NCBI GenBank assembly: GCA_036389955.1
Contig: DASVVJ010000282.1
Location: 1 to 30,410, forward strand
DNA length: 30,410 nt
Origin: Myxococcaceae bacterium
Lineage (GTDB): Bacteria; Myxococcota; Myxococcia; Myxococcales; Myxococcaceae
Direction: 5' to 3'
Shown: one piece after another, positions 1,874 through 8,199 of the stretch
Position numbering within the stretch: position 1 is the stretch's first letter
Layout: each line of letters begins with the position of its first letter
The notes under the pieces: generated by a model
Told to the model about the DNA's origin: nothing
Seen by the model: only the letters and a program-made list of their open reading frames with translations
Databases searched by the model: none
Position numbers and translations under genes: made by a program

Positions 1874-3568
1874 TCAATGACCAGGCAGCTCATCCTGGAA
1901 CGAGGCCCCGCTGGCCGTGAGCGACTTGCCCTCGTGCCAGAGCAGCTCCTCGACCCGGAGGAGCAGCTCTGTCAGCCCTTCTCCCCGCGCCGCGCTGATC
2001 GCGATGCCATCCTGGTGATGCGCGGTGAGGTGGGCCAGGTGCCCTTGCATTCCCTCCTCCAGCAGATCGCTCTTGTTGAAGACGAGCAGGCGCGGTGTTT
2101 CGTGCAGGCCCAGGCTCTTCAGGATGTGCTCCACGGCTTCTATCTGAAGCAGGTGTTCCGGATCCGAAACATCCACCACGTGCAGGAGCAGGTCCGCGTC
2201 CGTGAGCTCCTCGAGCGTGGCGCGGAAGGCGCTCACCAGCGTCTGCGGCAGCGCGCGGATGAACCCCACCGTGTCGGTGATGACCACCTCGCGGTCTCGC
2301 GGGAAGCGCAGCCTGCGGCTGGCCGGATCGAGCGTGGCGAACAGCTTGTTCTCCGCCACCACGTCCGAGTTCGTCAGCCGGTTGAGGAGCGTGGACTTGC
2401 CCGCGTTCGTGTAACCGACGATGGCGAGGACCGGCACGTCGTGCCGGGCCCGCTGCTGGCGGCGCACCTGCCGGCTGACACTCAGCGCGTCGATTCTCTT
2501 CTCGAGCATGGAGATGCGGGCGCGCACGCGGCGTCGATCCACCTCGAGCTTCGTCTCGCCGGGCCCTCGCCCGCCAATGCCGCCCGCGAGCCGCGAGAGG
2601 CCCTCGTCCCGCTGGGCGAGGCGCGGAAGCATGTACCGGAGCTGGGCGAGCTCGACCTGCAGCCGGCCCTCGGCGCTGTGCGCGTGCTGAGCGAAGATGT
2701 CGAGGATGAGCTGGGTGCGGTCCAGTACCTTCAGGCTCGTGTGCTCGGAGATGTGCCGGGCCTGGGACGGCGTCAGCTCGTGGTCGAAGATGATCATGTC
2801 CGCGAAGAGCTGCATCGCCCGGAGGTTCAGCTCCTCCAGCTTCCCCCGGCCAATCACGAAGCGCGGATCGACGCGCGGCCGCGACTGGATGAGCACGTCG
2901 AGCACCTGGACGCCGGCGGTGCGCGACAGCTCCTTCAGCTCGGCCATGGAGGCCTCGGCCAGCTCGCGGCCTCCGAGCGCCACCCCGACGAGGATGGCGC
3001 GCCCCTGGACGGCGGTCTCCCGGCCGGCGACGGAGCGCCCGAAAGCCGCCTCGATCTCCTCGGCCCGCGCCACGGGATCAAAGTCCAGCCCGTGGACACC
3101 CTCGAAAGCTTCGGTCTTCCAGAACTTCGCTCGCTCGCCAGTCGCCTCGGCGTCGAGATACCCAAGATAGACTTTGCCTGGCAGGCCGTCGGGCTGCGTG
3201 ACGATCGCGCAGACGAGATCCAGCCGGAGCAAGGCCAGGTCGGTGAGATCGTCCGGCGTGAGCGGCTCATCTTTCAAGTGCGTGTGAACGAGCCGCAGGC
3301 CCCGCAGACGCGTGTCGCCCGCGCGAACGCGGCCCACCTCGGGGAGCTCCAACTTGAACGCGTCCCCGACGATGACATGCTCGATCTCTCCGCGCCGGTT
3401 GATGAGGGCGCCCACCTGACGCCCCACCTCGTGGGAGAGCTCGGAGAGGTGGCGAGCGAGCTCGGGGCTTGTCACCTCGTCAGGCCTGACGCGCCGCCGG
3501 TAAGTCGCCTCCAGGCGCTTCCACTGATTCGGCTTGAGTCCCAGGGTGTTTCCGCTGATGGCAGGAAT
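1874..3568 (-). CDS. hflX: GTPase HflX in a long form with a ~150-aa N-terminal extension.
   Basis: The 533-aa track ORF shows the HflX hallmarks: ...DRTQLILDIFAQHAHSAEGRLQVELAQLRYMLPRL..., G1 'GYTNAGKSTLLN', 'DTVGF', 'NKSD'. The conserved reading frame continues upstream of the track's GTG (3475) with ISGNTLGLKPNQWKRLEATYRRRVRPDEV and contains no ATG/GTG/TTG. A strong SD (AAGGAGAG, complement of 3574-3581) sits 7 nt before an in-frame ATT (3568). The start is therefore uncertain (ATT 3568, ATC 3559 or GTG 3475). Confidence 0.8.
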   Translation of the reverse strand: MPAISGNTLGLKPNQWKRLEATYRRRVRPDEVTSPELARHLSELSHEVGRQVGALINRRGEIEHVIVGDAFKLELPEVGRVRAGDTRLRGLRLVHTHLKDEPLTPDDLTDLALLRLDLVCAIVTQPDGLPGKVYLGYLDAEATGERAKFWKTEAFEGVHGLDFDPVARAEEIEAAFGRSVAGRETAVQGRAILVGVALGGRELAEASMAELKELSRTAGVQVLDVLIQSRPRVDPRFVIGRGKLEELNLRAMQLFADMIIFDHELTPSQARHISEHTSLKVLDRTQLILDIFAQHAHSAEGRLQVELAQLRYMLPRLAQRDEGLSRLAGGIGGRGPGETKLEVDRRRVRARISMLEKRIDALSVSRQVRRQQRARHDVPVLAIVGYTNAGKSTLLNRLTNSDVVAENKLFATLDPASRRLRFPRDREVVITDTVGFIRALPQTLVSAFRATLEELTDADLLLHVVDVSDPEHLLQIEAVEHILKSLGLHETPRLLVFNKSDLLEEGMQGHLAHLTAHHQDGIAISAARGEGLTELLLRVEELLWHEGKSLTASGASFQDELPGH

Positions 3569-3720
3569 GGTGGCTCTCCTTGCGCGTGAAGCGTGCCGCT
3601 CCGTTCGGGTCTCACGCTAATCACTGCGAAGGTCATGTGAGCCCTGCGGGCTGAGGGGCGCTACCGTACGGCTCCTCCCTCGTGAGGGGGCAAGCTGCCG
3701 CTCAACACCCAGGCAAGCAC

Positions 3721-3737
3721 CGCCAGGGCCCCTGGCG
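3721..3737. other. Perfect palindrome CGCCAGGG-C-CCCTGGCG located 22 bp downstream of the PilT-like stop. It may be a protein-binding site or part of a terminator.
   Basis: Read directly from the sequence. Confidence 0.25.
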
Positions 3738-3758
3738 GTGACTTGAAACTGCCTCCGG

Positions 3759-5528
3759 TCACTTCTGCGCCGGCGCAGCCCCGGCGGAGGCCTCCGCTGG
3801 CGACTCCACCTTGAAACCCGCGCGCTCGAGCATGGCGCGCATCTCGCTGCGGGCCACGGACTTGTTGAGCGCCTCGATCGGTTGAACCAGCTTTTTCTTG
3901 GCCAGATCCAACAGCGCGTCGTTGAGCATCATCATTCCGTGCCCGCGCGAGGTCTGCATCACCGAGGGAATCTGGAACGTCTTGCCCTCACGGATGAGGT
4001 TGGACACCGAGCTGGTGCACAGGAGCACCTCCTGCGCCGCCACGCGCCCACCACCGATCTTCTTGCACAGCGTCTGGGAGATGACGCCCTTGAGCGACTC
4101 GGAGAGCATCATGCGGATCTGCGCCTGACGGTCCGCCGGGAACTGGTCGATGATGCGGTCCACCGTGGAGGCCGCCGTGTTGGTGTGCAGCGTGCCGAAC
4201 ACCAGGTGCCCCGTCTCCGCCGTCTCGATGGCGATGGCGATCGTCTCCAGGTCTCGCATTTCTCCCACCAGCACCACGTCCGGATCCTCGCGCAGCGCCG
4301 CGCGCAGCGCGTCCTTGAAGGAGTCGGTGTGGACGCCAATCTCGCGCTGGTTCACCAGGCACTTCTTGTTCGGGTGAACGAACTCGATGGGGTCCTCGAT
4401 GGTGATGATGTGGTCTTCACGATGGCGGTTGATGTAGTCGACCATCGACGCCAGCGTGGTGGACTTGCCCGAGCCGGTGGGACCGGTGACGAGCACCAGC
4501 CCCTTGGTGAGGAAGCACAGGTCCAGAATCTGCTTGGACAGCCCCATCTCCTCCGCGCTGCGGATGGTGTTGGGAATCTGCCGCAGCACGGCGCCAATGC
4601 CCTTGCGGTCGGCGAAGACGTTGACGCGGAAGCGCGCCGCCGGCGTCTCGTAGGCGAAGTCCGTGTCGCGCTTTTTCTCCCACTGCTGCTTGTTCTTCTC
4701 CGGAGCGATGCTGAAGACCATTTCCTTGAGGCGCGGGGGCGAAACCACGCCGAACTCCGTCATGGGGACCATGTCTCCATCGATGCGCAGGTGCGGCACC
4801 GTATCGCTGGACATATGAAGGTCCGAGGCACGGCGGGCCAGCATCGTCTCCAGCAGCGAGAGCATCTGCGCCGCGGACTCGCTCTGCTGCGCCAGGTCTG
4901 CGCCCGGCGAGACGGACGGCGCCGGCTCCGGCGGGGCGGCGGGTACCGCCGGGGGCGCCGCGGGAGGCGGAGGGGCCGGAGCGGTTGCCTTCTCCACCGG
5001 CTTGGGGGCGGGTTGCGCGGCGGGAGCCATGACGGGCGGCCGGGTCGGCGTTACCGCCGGAGCGGGGCGCGGTGCCGCCGCGGCCGGAGCCGCCGCTGGA
5101 GCAGCCGCCGGAGCCTGAGGGGCACTCGCCACGGTGCTCTGGGCCATCCCCAACATGTCGGCGGGAGAGGCCAGCTCGAGCTTCTCTCCCGAGTCCTCGA
5201 ACTCGAACGTGCCATACATGGCATGCGGGGCGAAGGGCACCATCGACACCCGCGCATGTTGCTGGTCCATCTCGAACTTCACCTGGACCGCGCCTCCGGG
5301 AGAGGCATAGGGAAAGATGGTGGTCCCCGGGGCCGGGAAGGTCGCCCGTTGATCCGAAGGCACCAGCTCCGCGACCGCTCCGATGATCTGCTGGGTGGTG
5401 AGGTTCTGCTTCAGTACCGGCACGATCCCCGAGGTGGTGCGGATGCTCACGCCCCCACCGGTCTCCATGAGGATTTCCAGACCAGAGTCCTTGAGAAGCT
5501 TCTCGATGATGTAGTCAATCCTGGCCAT
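3759..5528 (-). CDS. PilT-family type IV pilus retraction ATPase paralogue. It has an extra ~100-aa N-terminal domain and a ~70-aa Pro/Ala-rich linker ahead of the canonical PilT core.
   Basis: Walker A 'GPTGSGKSTT', Asp box, Walker B 'DVVLVGEMRD', His box 'TLHTN' and the PilT-specific 'NLIREGK' motif are all present. The ATG at 5526-5528 lies 4 nt after the upstream gene's TGA (TGACATCATGG), indicating coupling. The track's TTG at 5579 would overlap the upstream gene and is judged less likely. Confidence 0.85.
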   Translation of the reverse strand: MARIDYIIEKLLKDSGLEILMETGGGVSIRTTSGIVPVLKQNLTTQQIIGAVAELVPSDQRATFPAPGTTIFPYASPGGAVQVKFEMDQQHARVSMVPFAPHAMYGTFEFEDSGEKLELASPADMLGMAQSTVASAPQAPAAAPAAAPAAAAPRPAPAVTPTRPPVMAPAAQPAPKPVEKATAPAPPPPAAPPAVPAAPPEPAPSVSPGADLAQQSESAAQMLSLLETMLARRASDLHMSSDTVPHLRIDGDMVPMTEFGVVSPPRLKEMVFSIAPEKNKQQWEKKRDTDFAYETPAARFRVNVFADRKGIGAVLRQIPNTIRSAEEMGLSKQILDLCFLTKGLVLVTGPTGSGKSTTLASMVDYINRHREDHIITIEDPIEFVHPNKKCLVNQREIGVHTDSFKDALRAALREDPDVVLVGEMRDLETIAIAIETAETGHLVFGTLHTNTAASTVDRIIDQFPADRQAQIRMMLSESLKGVISQTLCKKIGGGRVAAQEVLLCTSSVSNLIREGKTFQIPSVMQTSRGHGMMMLNDALLDLAKKKLVQPIEALNKSVARSEMRAMLERAGFKVESPAEASAGAAPAQK

Positions 5529-5532
5529 GATG

Positions 5533-6003
5533 TCAGCGCGAGAGGGGTTCCACGGAGGAGATGTAGCGTTTATTGACAAGCGCTATGCGCTTGCCCTGGA
5601 CGAGACGAATGAACGGCGGTGTGTCGTTGAGATAGTCGTTGAGCCGGGTCCGGCCCTCGGGCTGCATGTAGACGATGAGCCCTTGCAGCCGCTGGCCATT
5701 CACCAGCCGGAGCTGCACTTCGTGCTCCGTCAGGATGGTGAGGCGATCCTCTTCGCGGAACTCGTGATCGACGTCGGTCTGCGCCACCACGATGGCGGCA
5801 CTGTTGAGGAAGGTGATCATCCCCGTGGCCACGTCTTGAGCGGGAATGAATTTCATCTCTCCGTTGAGTAGGTCCGACAGCCGCTCACCCTCAGTGTACT
5901 CGGGGACCCCGGTCATGAGGAACACGGAGACCTCCCGGGCCTCACCCTCGGGAGAGGAGATCTGAGCAAGCACACGGCGTTTGGGAACGCGAAACTCTTC
6001 CAC
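5533..6003 (-). CDS. Hypothetical 156-aa protein translationally coupled upstream of the PilT-like ATPase. It is a possible regulatory partner.
   Basis: GTG start at 6003 is preceded by the SD AAGGAAG with an 8-nt spacer, and the in-frame upstream stop is 16 codons away. I recognise no family. Its codon usage ends in A/T more often than neighbouring genes. Confidence 0.6.
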   Translation of the reverse strand: MEEFRVPKRRVLAQISSPEGEAREVSVFLMTGVPEYTEGERLSDLLNGEMKFIPAQDVATGMITFLNSAAIVVAQTDVDHEFREEDRLTILTEHEVQLRLVNGQRLQGLIVYMQPEGRTRLNDYLNDTPPFIRLVQGKRIALVNKRYISSVEPLSR

Positions 6004-6204
6004 GGGAGCTGCTTCCTTGGTCGTAACGAGGGGGTCTGCGCCGGAATCCTACTGGCAGTGGTGCTCCCGCACCAAGGCCCAGCTCCGTGGCGGGCTACCC
6101 GTCAGGCCAGGTCGAGGCACGGGCCCTTTCCGGGCTGAATTTCTCTCCAAGGGTCTCGTCTGCGGGAGCCGTTGCTCGGATTTTCACCCTTAATGAGGAT
6201 CTCC

Positions 6205-6975
6205 ATGAACATCTCGAAGCGTCAGTACCTTGGCATGCTCTCCTTGTCGTTCGGTCTGGTCGTCACCGGCTGTGGAGGAGAGACTCCGGGCGAATCCCCG
6301 GACCCCCCTGCGCCCCCTGCGCCCCCTGCGCCCCCTGCGCCCCCTCCGCCCCAGGGAGGGACGGGCAACAACTCGGGAATCGCCGTGGTCTGCGGCGAGG
6401 AGACCTGTGTTGCGCCGGGAGATGCCTACACGAGCCACTTCACCGGGCCGAACTGCGATGGTGAGGAGTACTACTACACACCCTACTTCTCTGGGACGAC
6501 CGACCCGAATCCGGACCAAATCATCCGGCCGTGGGACGGCAAGGGCATGGCCGGCACGGAGCTGCGCACCGTGATGGTGCGCTCGGTCCGAGACGCCATG
6601 GGCACCTGCCTGGTGAACCAGTGGCCCGACGGCAACACGCTGAGCAACTTCGTGCGCGTCTATCGCGAGGCCAACCCCTACGCGCTCTGCGGCGAGGACA
6701 GCTGCAAGTACCCCAGGGGCCGGTACTACAGCCACTTCACCGGGCCGAACTGCGATGGCGAGGAGTACTACTACACGCCCTACTTCTCTGGGACGAACGA
6801 CCCGAATAAGGACGGGATCATCCGCTCGTGGGATGGCAAGGGCCTGGCGGGAACACAGCTCGCCTCGGCCAACACCCGCTCGTCTCGTGACAGCAGCGGC
6901 CACTGCAACGCCAACCAGTGGCCTGCCGGCAACCCGCTCACCAACATGGTGCGCATCTACCGCACCACCCGCTAG
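6205..6975 (+). CDS. Secreted lipoprotein of 256 aa made of a Pro/Ala linker and two tandem ~99-aa Cys-containing repeats of unknown family.
   Basis: ATG at 6205 follows the SD GAGGA with a 5-nt spacer. Signal peptide MNISKRQYLGMLSLSFGLVVTG|C has a lipobox. The repeats share C-GE-x2-C ... YxSHFTGPNCDGEEYYYTPYFSGTxDPNxDxIIRxWDGKGxAGTxL ... NQWPxGNxLxNxVRxYR. Confidence 0.8.
   Translation: MNISKRQYLGMLSLSFGLVVTGCGGETPGESPDPPAPPAPPAPPAPPPPQGGTGNNSGIAVVCGEETCVAPGDAYTSHFTGPNCDGEEYYYTPYFSGTTDPNPDQIIRPWDGKGMAGTELRTVMVRSVRDAMGTCLVNQWPDGNTLSNFVRVYREANPYALCGEDSCKYPRGRYYSHFTGPNCDGEEYYYTPYFSGTNDPNKDGIIRSWDGKGLAGTQLASANTRSSRDSSGHCNANQWPAGNPLTNMVRIYRTTR
6304..6348 (+). repeat. 9-bp tandem microsatellite (CCCCCTGCG)x4 plus one degenerate copy, encoding (PAP)n.
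   Basis: Read directly from the sequence. It lies inside the lipoprotein linker and is an in-frame 9-bp unit, so it is a candidate slippage-prone tract. Confidence 0.8.
6391..6972 (+). repeat. Two tandem ~297-bp DNA repeat units encoding the duplicated protein domain.
   Basis: AGCCACTTCACCGGGCCGAACTGCGATGG(T/C)GAGGAGTACTACTACAC(A/G)CCCTACTTCTCTGGGACGA occurs at 6433 and again at 6730, which is 297 bp apart and about 95% identical. Confidence 0.8.
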
Positions 6976-7195: not shown

Positions 7196-8023
7196 CTACG
7201 CGCCGAGCACCTGCTTGGCGCGAGCGTAATAGGCCTCGCGGGCGGCCAGTCCGTTGAACCCGCCGTTGATGCGGCGGGTGATCTCCCGGAAGTTGCCCTG
7301 ATCCGCGTAGCTGTTCAGGTTGCGGCTGTTCCAGAACCACGCGGCGGTGCGGAAGCCCACGTCCACGTCCGCCGCGCGCCGGGGGTTGCCCTCCAGATCG
7401 ATGCCCAGGGCCTTGCCCGCCGCCCGGTAATTGGCGCGGCCCGTGAGCTGAATGGGCCCGCGGCCCTTGTAGCGCACGCCGTCACCCGGATGAATGTTGC
7501 CCAGGTCCTTGCGGCCCTCGTACGCCGCACCCGAGGCGAGCTCCTCGAAGTAGCGGAACTCGGCGCTCTCGTGCGCCAGCTGCGCCAGGAACGCTGCCTG
7601 CCGCTTCGGGGTGTTGATGCCCGCTTCGACCATTGCCTTGTTGAGGTGCGGCAGCACCTCGTTGGCCCTCGCCGTCGACAGGTGCGGCATGATCTGCCGC
7701 AGCTGCTGCACCGAGACCCCACCCTTCACCGGGCCCGGATCCGTGGGCCGGGTCGGCGCGGCAGCCAGCGCGGCCCACGTCCGGGGCCCCACCACGCCAT
7801 CCGCGCCCAGGCCCTTGGCGCGCTGGAAGGATTTCACCGCCGCCGTGGTCTTCGGGCCGAAGTCCCCATCCGCGGCGCCCGGGCTGAAGCCGGCCGCGGC
7901 CAGCTTGCGCTGGAGGTCCACCACCTGGGGACCGCGAGCGCCTTCCCTCAGGGTGGGCGGCGCGAGGGCCGCCGTCGCGGCCAGAGGAGCAGTGGTAGGG
8001 CGTACAGTCGAGGCGGAAAGCAT
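7196..8023 (-). CDS. Secreted peptidoglycan-binding protein with a C-terminal GH19 chitinase/lysozyme-like domain.
   Basis: PG_binding_1-like 'VKSFQRAKGLGADGVVGPRTWAAL' and GH19 catalytic-region motifs 'AAFLAQLAHESAEFRYFEE...YKGRGPIQLTGRANY...FWN' are present. ATG at 8023 (MLSASTVRPTTAPLAATAALA) is chosen because the longer track ORF would overlap the upstream gene. Tandem stop TAG-TAA. Confidence 0.75.
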   Translation of the reverse strand: MLSASTVRPTTAPLAATAALAPPTLREGARGPQVVDLQRKLAAAGFSPGAADGDFGPKTTAAVKSFQRAKGLGADGVVGPRTWAALAAAPTRPTDPGPVKGGVSVQQLRQIMPHLSTARANEVLPHLNKAMVEAGINTPKRQAAFLAQLAHESAEFRYFEELASGAAYEGRKDLGNIHPGDGVRYKGRGPIQLTGRANYRAAGKALGIDLEGNPRRAADVDVGFRTAAWFWNSRNLNSYADQGNFREITRRINGGFNGLAAREAYYARAKQVLGA

Positions 8024-8199
8024 GGCAAGGGATCCAGTTCTCAGGAAATGAGCTGAATGCCCCGTTATCGTGTGCGCCCCTGTGGGAGTTGCGCAGACAT
8101 CTAAAAAGAGGGCCCCAAAGGGAACCCGGGCCGCAGCCACGGAGCCGGGGTCACTCCCAGACGCCCCCCTGCCAGCGCAGGCCCTGCCCGCAGAGGCGA

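What the first reader, a model, noticed from the sequence alone, without database searches (positions are those of the whole stretch)
3759..6003. PilT paralogue with an extra N-terminal domain and Pro/Ala linker, coupled to an unknown 156-aa protein
The ATPase core is an unmistakable PilT (retraction-type, with the NLIREGK motif). It is preceded by ~100 aa of unknown or degenerate PilT-N-like sequence and a ~70-aa low-complexity PA-rich linker. Its ATG lies 4 nt after the stop of a 156-aa protein of no recognisable family. That protein has a good SD-GTG start and atypically A/T-ending codons. Such accessory PilT paralogues with dedicated partners may drive something other than pilus retraction.
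Basis: partly seen in the sequence, partly recalled or inferred. Interest (0 to 1): 0.55.

Follow-up and report, generated by a model that had tools for sequence, protein, structure and literature searches.

The report
PilT-like motor with Hfq-like partner
A myxobacterial two-gene operon encodes a pilus-retraction-type ATPase with a tethered extra copy of its own N-terminal domain, preceded by a small protein built from two Hfq-like barrels; the pair stays together across many genomes and is probably a motor plus its dedicated partner, though what it does is untested.

Summary
On the minus strand, a 156-aa gene (5533..6003, SD + GTG) ends 4 nt before the ATG (5528) of a 589-aa PilT-family ATPase (3759..5528).

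The ATPase has three parts:
- a confidently folded, conserved 100-aa N-terminal domain;
- a Pro/Ala-rich disordered linker of about 110 aa;
- a complete PilT core.

The extra domain looks like a diverged duplicate of PilT's own N-terminal domain. It is not a mis-called start: M1, R3 and D5 are invariant in orthologues and dN/dS is 0.13-0.23.

The pair is conserved. DUF6812 is followed by the long PilT in 27 of 30 Myxococcota genome loci, with gaps of 2-15 nt in most. DUF6812 lies upstream in 5 of 5 PilT-first look-ups. Flanking genes vary.

Unpaired DUF6812 genes occur in three Myxococcales MAGs, an actinobacterium and a Gemmatimonadota MAG.

Best reading: a dedicated partner or regulator of an accessory retraction-type ATPase, probably the MXAN_6705 type. 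The closest analogy is cyanobacterial Hfq-PilB. Function is inferred, not shown.

The parts
6012..6018 (-). Shine-Dalgarno-like AAGGAAG, 8 nt upstream of the GTG start of the DUF6812 gene
   Evidence: Read directly from the sequence
5533..6003 (-). 156-aa tandem-DUF6812 protein (two Hfq/Sm-like barrels), GTG start, TGA stop
5764..5991 (-). Repeat 1 (residues ~5-80): acidic barrel with an inserted helix carrying the family signature ERLSDLLN...F.P
   Evidence: AF2 secondary structure. hhalign of one half against the other, E = 3.7e-5. E40, D44 and F52 are >=95% conserved in 242 family members. pI 4.55.
5545..5742 (-). Repeat 2 (residues ~88-153): basic, Hfq-like barrel (LVNGQRLQG ... ALVNKRYISSV) with an inserted helix RLNDYLN
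   Evidence: hhalign against E. coli Hfq residues 21-63, E = 0.0022, 37% identity, with a 15-aa insertion. NCBIfam Hfq E = 0.0012 at residues 94-111. G103, G108, R120, D123, N126 and F131 are >=95% conserved. pI 10.1.
5529..5532 (-). 4-nt spacer between the TGA of the DUF6812 gene and the ATG of the ATPase gene (translational coupling)
   Evidence: Sequence. The equivalent gap is 2-15 nt in most of the related loci.
3759..5528 (-). 589-aa long PilT-family ATPase (N-domain + linker + PilT core)
5229..5528 (-). Extra N-terminal domain (residues 1-100), a diverged duplicate of the PilT N-terminal domain
   Evidence: pLDDT 88-97; element order H-E-E-E-H-E-E-E matches the core N-domain, which has one extra helix. 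hhalign E = 1.8e-4. PilU N-domain is the second PDB profile hit, E = 0.088. 17 invariant columns. dN/dS 0.13-0.23. No Pfam match.
4887..5228 (-). Disordered Pro/Ala-rich linker (residues 101-214)
   Evidence: pLDDT 31-52. Length varies from 18 to 405 aa among 78 orthologues, with P+A around 50%. dN/dS 0.28-0.45.
5142..5186 (-). Conserved short motif in the linker, EKLELASPADMLGMA (residues 115-129), predicted as a short helix
   Evidence: [DE]KLELASP[AS][DE]M[ML] is present in 35 of 78 orthologues and absent from the short-linker Anaeromyxobacter type. Helix at 122-129 in the AF2 model, low confidence.
3759..4886 (-). PilT core (residues 215-589): N-terminal domain plus ATPase domain, with Walker A at 4461..4484, Walker B, His box and SNLIREGK
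   Evidence: invariant GPTGSGKSTT, VGEMRDLET, HLVFGTLHT, NLIREGKTFQ.
3718..3740 (-). GC-rich hairpin 18 nt after the ATPase stop; possible operon end before hflX
   Evidence: 10-bp stem, MFE -28 kcal/mol for the 59-nt stretch, z = -1.77. Suggestive only: there is no clear T-run.

Best explanation
This is a self-contained two-gene operon of Myxococcota.

Shown:
- Gene 1 encodes a cytoplasmic 156-aa protein made of two tandem DUF6812 units.
- Each unit models as a five-stranded Sm/Hfq-like barrel with a helix inserted between strands 2 and 3.
- The first unit is acidic; the second is basic and Hfq-like.
- Gene 2 starts 4 nt after gene 1 stops. It encodes a catalytically intact PilT-type (retraction-type) hexameric ATPase.
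- That ATPase carries an extra, diverged copy of the PilT N-terminal domain, joined to the core by a disordered Pro/Ala-rich tether of very variable length.
- The two genes travel together while their flanking genes change.
- The extra N-domain was found in every long PilT encoded next to a DUF6812 gene that I examined.

Inferred:
- The two proteins are made together and form a complex.
- The DUF6812 protein binds the extra N-domain, or the conserved ELASPADM helix in the tether.
- This module recruits, localises or gates an accessory retraction-type ATPase at the type IV pilus base. The flexible tether would let the ATPase ring engage the machine while the N-domain/partner holds on elsewhere.
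- The window protein is probably the counterpart of M. xanthus MXAN_6705, the PilT paralogue reported with a long N-terminus.
For: Gene reality and selection.

Coupling:
- A 4-nt spacer here.
- 27 of 30 GTDB genome loci have DUF6812 immediately followed by N-domain plus PilT core, with gaps of 2-15 nt in most.
- Five of five look-ups that started from the ATPase (a Myxococcus sp. MAG, Melittangium, Anaeromyxobacter, Stigmatella, and Hyalangium gracile's 900-aa form) have DUF6812 directly upstream.
- Flanking genes differ in every genus.
- Hyalangium versicolor has two copies of the whole pair (L003 and L007).
- Pairs with DUF6812 only 30-34% identical to the window protein still carry the N-domain on the ATPase (L037, L041).

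N-domain: AF2 pLDDT 88-97 with PilT-NTD topology; hhalign E = 1.8e-4; PilU N-domain hit.

Precedent: cyanobacterial Hfq physically binds the pilus ATPase PilB and is needed for pili (PMC8092324).

M. xanthus: MXAN_6705 has a long N-terminus and is conserved across Myxococcales (PMC13584747).
Against:
- DUF6812 genes occur without an adjacent ATPase: three Myxococcales MAGs, where malic enzyme follows, the actinobacterium Diaminobutyricimonas, and a Gemmatimonadota MAG. The partner can therefore act on its own or with something else.
- No pilus genes lie nearby in the window.
- In M. xanthus the MXAN_6705 deletion was not among the two strongest S-motility phenotypes (PMC13584747).
- I could not fetch M. 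xanthus DNA to confirm orthology or the presence of a DUF6812 gene there. MXAN_6705 sits next to a second PilT paralogue (MXAN_6706), whereas none of my loci has a second PilT within 6 kb.
- The N-domain homology is statistically modest.
Confidence: 0.55

Rival explanations
1. The DUF6812 protein is an autonomous Hfq-like nucleic-acid (RNA) binding protein, possibly the functional stand-in for the hfq gene that myxobacteria are said to lack. On this reading it is co-transcribed with the ATPase for regulatory or historical reasons only, with no stable complex.
For: - Hfq is almost the only PDB fold match.
- Repeat 2 is basic, pI 10.1, like the Hfq core at about 10.
- Family-invariant or near-invariant residues align with Hfq G29, G34, F42 and K56.
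- Unpaired family members exist in other phyla.
- The literature states there is no hfq in myxobacteria (PMC5684412).
- hflX lies just downstream in this window, recalling the hfq-hflX pairing known from other Proteobacteria (for the hflX domains; the pairing itself is from my own knowledge).
Against: - Hfq models score far below threshold: TIGR02383 18.7 against 61.7 bits; PF17209 13.5 against 27.
- The whole protein is acidic, with a median family pI of 5.4.
- The most conserved feature is the inserted helix (ERLSDLLN / RLxDYLN), which Hfq lacks.
- The Hfq N-terminal helix carrying Q8 is not present in that form.
- hflX is not within 6 kb in any of the 30 related genome loci.
- Tight, long-lived coupling specifically to the N-domain-bearing ATPase is not explained by this reading.
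Confidence: 0.15
2. The extra N-domain is a decoy or bridging domain. Because it derives from the PilT N-terminal domain, which packs on a neighbouring subunit's ATPase domain, it may dock on the ATPase domain of its own ring (auto-inhibition) or of another PilT, PilU or paralogue ring (hetero-motor coupling). The DUF6812 protein would then control that docking.
For: - N-domain homology to the PilT/PilU N-terminal domain.
- A long flexible tether suits intra- or inter-ring reach.
- Dual-motor PilT-PilU coupling is an established theme (PMC13584747, PMC6762196).
Against: - The N-domain is only about 15% identical to the core N-domain, so conservation of the packing interface is unknown.
- AF2 did not dock it on the core in the monomer model: pTM 0.41, with the tether disordered.
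- Tethers as short as 18 aa exist.
Confidence: 0.15
3. The pair powers a process other than type IVa pilus retraction, for example another filament, secretion or uptake, or a cytoplasmic remodelling task. The DUF6812 protein would act as substrate adaptor.
For: - The module is never next to pilus genes in the loci examined.
- The canonical PilT and a PilU already exist in M. xanthus (PMC13584747).
- Unpaired DUF6812 proteins show that the fold is not pilus-specific.
Against: - The core is 70-90% conserved among orthologues with the PilT-type NLIREGK motif intact and scores well above the PilT/PilU family cut-off.
- PilT-paralogue deletions in M. xanthus affect S-motility to varying degrees (PMC13584747).
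Confidence: 0.15

Closest known systems
M. xanthus PilT paralogue MXAN_6705 (Rahman et al., J Bacteriol 2026, PMC13584747)
   Same: A PilT-family ATPase with Walker A/B, Asp and His boxes and an unusually long N-terminus. Reported as highly conserved across Myxococcales, which matches the spread seen here.
   Different: - The paper describes the long N-terminus as intrinsically disordered. Here the first 100 aa are a confidently folded, conserved domain and only the tether is disordered.
- The paper does not mention an upstream DUF6812 partner in the passages I read.
- MXAN_6705 is adjacent to a second paralogue, MXAN_6706; none of my loci has one within 6 kb.
- Orthology is inferred; it was not checked by sequence.
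Cyanobacterial Hfq-PilB(-EbsA) complex (PMC8092324 and work cited there)
   Same: An Hfq-fold protein is physically associated with a type IV pilus hexameric ATPase and required for pilus function, with no known RNA substrates. It is a precedent for an Sm/Hfq barrel used as an ATPase partner.
   Different: [quoted passage not shown]
- Here the protein is a tandem, diverged DUF6812 with inserted helices, the ATPase is PilT-type, and the genes are translationally coupled.
- No interaction has been shown here.
Canonical Hfq (TIGR02383 / PF17209)
   Same: Same five-stranded Sm barrel. Repeat 2 shows LVNGxxLQG (Sm1-like) and an NK[RQ][HY][IV] segment aligned to YKHAI (Sm2). The residues aligned to G29, G34 and F42 are family-invariant, and the one aligned to K56 is invariant within Myxococcota.
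   Different: - Scores lie far below the family thresholds.
- The architecture is tandem.
- A 15-aa helix insertion carries the real family signature.
- The N-terminal repeat is acidic.
- Hexamer formation and RNA binding are untested.
PilT/PilU dual retraction motors (PMC6762196, PMC13584747)
   Same: An accessory PilT-family ATPase alongside the main PilT. PilU also carries a family-specific appendage (a disordered C-terminus in M. xanthus).
   Different: Here the appendage is N-terminal and includes a folded domain, and there is a dedicated small partner gene. The window protein scores as PilT/PilU family but was not placed in the PilU clade.
[not shown]
   Same: A small Sm-like barrel protein that regulates a hexameric RecA-type ATPase by binding its N-terminal domain.
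   Different: A different ATPase family and process (transcription termination). The resemblance is of fold and logic only.

Membership tests
PilT/PilU family type IVa pilus ATPase (TIGR01420) | Score above the curated family cut-off over the full model | tested here: met
   455.6 bits against a cut-off of 319.1; model positions 2-341 of 343; residues 222-560
PilT/PilU family type IVa pilus ATPase (TIGR01420) | Intact Walker A, Walker B (Asp-rich), His box and the PilT-type (A)IRNLIRE motif | tested here: met
   GPTGSGKSTT, DVVLVGEMRD, HLVFGTLHT and VSNLIREGK are present, and invariant in 51 orthologues
PilT/PilU family type IVa pilus ATPase (TIGR01420) | Usual architecture of about 345-400 aa: one N-terminal domain plus the ATPase domain | tested here: not met
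   589 aa, with an extra 100-aa domain and a tether of about 110 aa
PilT/PilU family type IVa pilus ATPase (TIGR01420) | Powers pilus retraction; hexamer at the pilus base | not testable with these tools
   The only evidence is indirect M. xanthus genetics on presumed relatives (PMC13584747)
Pfam DUF6812 (PF20660) | Score above the gathering threshold | tested here: met
   35.9 bits against 27.1, E = 7.6e-9, two stretches. Nearly all 111 homologues carry PF20660.
Pfam DUF6812 (PF20660) | Tandem two-unit architecture of about 150-170 aa, typical of the close family | tested here: met
   hhalign of one half against the other, E = 3.7e-5. Most of the best 150 representatives are 150-170 aa and match the profile end to end.
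Hfq (TIGR02383 / PF17209) | Sequence score above the family cut-off | tested here: not met
   TIGR02383 18.7 against 61.7 bits; PF17209 13.5 against 27. hhalign against E. coli Hfq gives E = 0.0022, probability 13%.
Hfq (TIGR02383 / PF17209) | Sm fold: five-stranded bent beta-barrel | tested here: met
   [not shown]
Hfq (TIGR02383 / PF17209) | N-terminal alpha-helix (Q8) and the YKHAI Sm2 motif that form the proximal uridine pocket | tested here: inconclusive
   The residues aligned to F42 and K56 are conserved. H57 aligns to R/Q and Y55 to N. There is no equivalent long N-terminal helix.
Hfq (TIGR02383 / PF17209) | Homohexameric ring that binds RNA | not testable with these tools
   No multimer prediction or binding assay was possible
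PilZ domain (partner of PilB in Xanthomonas/Pseudomonas) | Pfam PilZ match or PilZ-like fold | tested here: not met
   [not shown]
T2SSE_N / MshEN or PIN ('PilT N-terminus') domain, for the extra N-domain | Pfam match to these N-terminal domains | tested here: not met
   None of the 22 N-domains matches either family. Only three unrelated single-member hits at E > 0.07.

The most novel reading that the evidence does not exclude
DUF6812 is a duplicated, diverged Hfq. As a trimer of tandem barrels it would form a pseudo-hexameric Sm ring that stacks on, or is held by the tethered N-domain of, a PilT-type hexamer. That would be a second, independently evolved Hfq/pilus-ATPase partnership, after cyanobacterial Hfq-PilB. 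It might also be the 'missing' Hfq-like RNA-binding protein of myxobacteria, linking RNA or nucleotide sensing to pilus retraction.
Probability: 0.15. Interest if true: 0.8.

Novelty: new variant of a known kind. Interest (0 to 1): 0.58.

Why it matters
PilT paralogues are common, and in most species nobody knows what they do. This one has three features that can be tested directly in the genetically tractable M. xanthus:
- a folded extra N-domain, described in the literature as disordered;
- a conserved short motif in the tether;
- a dedicated, co-translated partner.

The partner's Hfq-like fold connects to two open issues. One is why cyanobacterial Hfq sits on the pilus motor. The other is what, if anything, replaces Hfq in myxobacteria.

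The finding also gives a first structural and contextual handle on DUF6812. That family has at least 1,661 clusters at 50% identity, and I found no paper that mentions it.

Tried and rejected
- A homologue search with the 130-aa N-terminal region alone found only 3 fragments, a limit of the word index. The full-length search was needed.
- The genome scan used a single peptide pattern, VALVNK[RQ][HY][VI]. It therefore missed genera with variants, such as Stigmatella ('MALINKRHV') and the window itself ('IALVNKRYI'). The count of 30 loci is not a census.
- The afdb50 fold library was unavailable.
- Look-ups of P0145 (Stigmatella aurantiaca) and P0340 were not on record.
- Scans that found nothing useful:
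  - PADLOC: only generic P-loop hits for the ATPase and none for the partner, so this is not a known defence system.
  - Rfam: no RNA family anywhere in the window.
  - Promoters and terminators: no sigma-70-like promoter, and the only terminator-like hit is on the wrong strand.
  - Plasmid collection: no DNA match.
- An hfq-hflX-like linkage was considered and rejected as a conserved feature. hflX lies downstream here but not within 6 kb in any of the 30 related genome loci.
- Mis-called start: rejected.
- Spurious small ORF: rejected.
Full report
**What is there**

The window is a 30,410-nt contig of a 'Myxococcaceae bacterium' MAG. The 156-aa protein is HEX8699169.1, on a contig of exactly that length.

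Three genes lie in a row on the minus strand:
- a 156-aa ORF at 5533..6003;
- a PilT-family ORF whose conserved start is the ATG at 5528, with its stop at 3759;
- hflX at 1874..3475, 283 nt further on.

The small gene starts at a GTG, 8 nt after AAGGAAG. Its TGA is separated from the ATPase ATG by 'catc'. The mechanical ORF list extends the ATPase to a TTG at 5579. All orthologues, however, begin 'MAR[IL]D', and M1, R3 and D5 are invariant. A GC-rich hairpin lies 18 nt after the ATPase stop. No Rfam family, sigma-70-like promoter or known defence-system model was found.

**The ATPase**

The AF2 model built from the 51-sequence alignment has three regions:
- residues 1-100, pLDDT 88-97;
- residues 104-211, below 50 apart from a weak helix at 122-129;
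- the PilT core.

The N-domain has the element order helix, three strands, helix, three strands. The PilT N-terminal domain that follows it has the same order with one extra helix.

Three further results on the N-domain:
- A profile-profile comparison of the N-domain with the core N-domain aligns 99 columns colinearly at E = 1.8e-4.
- A profile search of PDB sequences gives the N-domain of a PilU structure as its second hit, at E = 0.088.
- No Pfam family matches.

I conclude, with moderate confidence, that the extra domain is a diverged duplicate of the PilT N-terminal domain.

The domain is under purifying selection. Against four close relatives, dN/dS is 0.13-0.23, compared with 0.18-0.26 for the core and 0.28-0.45 for the tether.

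Among 78 orthologues the tether ranges from 18 to 405 aa, with P+A around 50%. In 35 of the 78 it contains a conserved motif, [DE]KLELASP[AS][DE]M[ML]. In the window this is residues 115-129.

**The small protein**

It is not an orphan.
- It hits Pfam DUF6812 above threshold, in two stretches.
- It has 111 homologues in the word-indexed search, almost all Myxococcota.
- An exhaustive profile search finds 1,661 clusters at 50% identity with E <= 1e-3. Most of the best 150 are 150-170 aa and match end to end.

The two halves are homologous to each other (hhalign E = 3.7e-5).

The AF2 model has pLDDT 83 and pTM 0.81. It shows two five-stranded barrels, each with a helix inserted between strands 2 and 3.

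Fold searches point to Hfq:
- Foldseek's top 50 are all Hfq except one low-probability hit, at prob >=0.99 and E about 1e-2.

At sequence level:
- Repeat 2 aligns to E. coli Hfq residues 21-63 with a 15-residue insertion (E = 0.0022, 37% identity).
- G103, G108 and F131, which are family-invariant, align to Hfq G29, G34 and F42. K145, invariant among the Myxococcota sequences and more than 80% conserved family-wide, aligns to K56.
- Hfq family models nevertheless score far below threshold.
- The most conserved feature of the family is the inserted helix (ERLSDLLN...F in repeat 1, RLxDYLN...F in repeat 2), which Hfq does not have.

Repeat 1 is acidic (pI 4.6). Repeat 2 is basic (pI 10.1), like the Hfq core. 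The whole protein is acidic.

So the protein has an Hfq-like fold, and possibly Hfq ancestry, but it does not meet the family criteria for Hfq.

**Linkage**

Starting from DUF6812, a scan of GTDB species genomes returned 30 loci.
- In 27 of them the next gene on the same strand encodes the N-domain plus PilT core. The gap is 2-15 nt in most.
- The three exceptions are related Myxococcales MAGs in which a malic-enzyme gene follows instead.

Starting from the ATPase, all five contexts I could read have DUF6812 directly upstream:
- a Myxococcus sp. MAG;
- Melittangium boletus;
- Anaeromyxobacter oryzae;
- Stigmatella sp.;
- the 900-aa form of Hyalangium gracile.

The flanking genes are different in every case, and none is a pilus gene. 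Hyalangium versicolor carries two copies of the whole pair, one with a 405-aa tether (L003 and L007).

Two distant pairs, with DUF6812 only 30-34% identical to the window protein, still have overlapping or abutting genes and an N-domain on the ATPase (L037, L041/L042).

Unpaired DUF6812 genes exist in the actinobacterium Diaminobutyricimonas and in a Gemmatimonadota MAG.

**Interpretation**

This pattern is the classic signature of two proteins that work together:
- a two-gene unit that moves and duplicates as a unit;
- translational coupling kept over deep divergence;
- an ATPase appendage that I found on every long PilT encoded next to this partner gene.

The simplest mechanism is that the tandem-barrel protein binds the tethered N-domain or the conserved tether helix, and so recruits, localises or gates an accessory retraction-type ATPase. 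That step is inference; nothing here tests binding.

Known systems show this logic is plausible:
- Cyanobacterial Hfq binds the pilus ATPase PilB and is required for pili (PMC8092324).
- The Sm-like Rof binds the N-terminal domain of the Rho hexamer (from my own knowledge).

The M. xanthus literature lists four PilT paralogues. MXAN_6705 has a long N-terminus 'predicted to be intrinsically disordered' and, with MXAN_6706, is conserved across Myxococcales. Deletions of the three paralogues other than pilU gave S-motility defects of varying degree, strongest for MXAN_0415 and MXAN_6706 (PMC13584747). The window protein is most likely the MXAN_6705 type, but I could not fetch that sequence to check. 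If so, the 'disordered N-terminus' description needs amending, because the first 100 residues are a folded, conserved domain.

**Rival readings**

The main rival is an autonomous Hfq-like RNA-binding role. It is made attractive by four things:
- the fold;
- the basic second repeat;
- the unpaired homologues;
- the published statement that myxobacteria lack hfq (PMC5684412).

The hflX gene downstream in this window is a tempting echo of hfq-hflX, but it is not conserved: there is no hflX within 6 kb in any of the 30 related genome loci.

Other rivals are a decoy or bridging role for the N-domain towards ATPase rings, and a non-pilus function for the motor.

**Novelty**

- The ATPase family is annotated everywhere as PilT and has been noticed in M. 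xanthus.
- DUF6812 exists in Pfam, but I found no paper that mentions it.
- I also found no paper describing an Hfq/Sm-like partner of a PilT paralogue.

I therefore rate this a new variant of a known kind: an accessory PilT-family motor with a previously undescribed domain and a dedicated partner. It is of moderate to good interest because it can be tested directly.

Noticed in passing
window 9928..12216 (-): A 762-aa bacterial homologue of the eukaryotic Major Vault Protein (Pfam MVP_shoulder 2.9e-45, plus Vault, Vault_2 and Vault_3).
   Followed up: no
window 1874..3475 (-): An HflX GTPase gene lies 283 nt downstream of the ATPase gene. As called it has about 170 aa before the GTP-bdg_N domain. 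Having hflX just downstream of an Hfq-like gene recalls hfq-hflX, but hflX is absent within 6 kb in all 30 related genome loci.
   Followed up: partly
window 6172..6975 (+): The divergently oriented 267-aa protein has a signal/lipoprotein-like N-terminus and a (PAP)n stretch. It also has two internal repeats of about 95 aa (CGEE.C...SHFTGPNCDGEEYYYTPYFSGT.DPN...WDGKG.AGT). No Pfam family matches.
   Followed up: no
window 7196..8302 (-): A protein with a PG_binding_1 domain and a glycoside hydrolase family 19 (chitinase/lysozyme-like) domain.
   Followed up: no
L034 6001..6504 (Diaminobutyricimonas sp., Actinobacteria); L039 4001..4618 (Gemmatimonadota MAG): Tandem-DUF6812 proteins outside Myxococcota with no ATPase neighbour. 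One lies next to methyltransferase-like DNA_binding_1 genes and ABC transporters, the other among peptidase genes. The actinobacterial protein is 41-42% identical to the window protein, unusually close for such a distant phylum.
   Followed up: partly
L003 and L007 (Hyalangium versicolor); L044 (H. gracile): Hyalangium carries two copies of the whole DUF6812 + long-PilT pair. One copy has a tether of about 400 aa, giving proteins of 888-900 aa.
   Followed up: partly
L022 6474..8052: In one MAG the paired ATPase appears broken. The ORF stops after 215 aa, and the core matches in split pieces at only 50% identity. This is a possible pseudogene or assembly frameshift.
   Followed up: no
L019, L025, L030 (~6470 onward): Three related Myxococcales MAGs have a NADP-malic-enzyme-like gene directly after DUF6812, where the ATPase sits elsewhere. 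Their upstream synteny is shared. This suggests loss or relocation of the ATPase in that lineage.
   Followed up: no
window 5533..6003 (-) and orthologues: GC3 of the DUF6812 gene is slightly lower than that of its partner and neighbours in many lineages: 0.78 against 0.86 here, and 0.83-0.87 against 0.91-0.94 in Hyalangium, Archangium and Melittangium. There is no difference in Anaeromyxobacter.
   Followed up: partly
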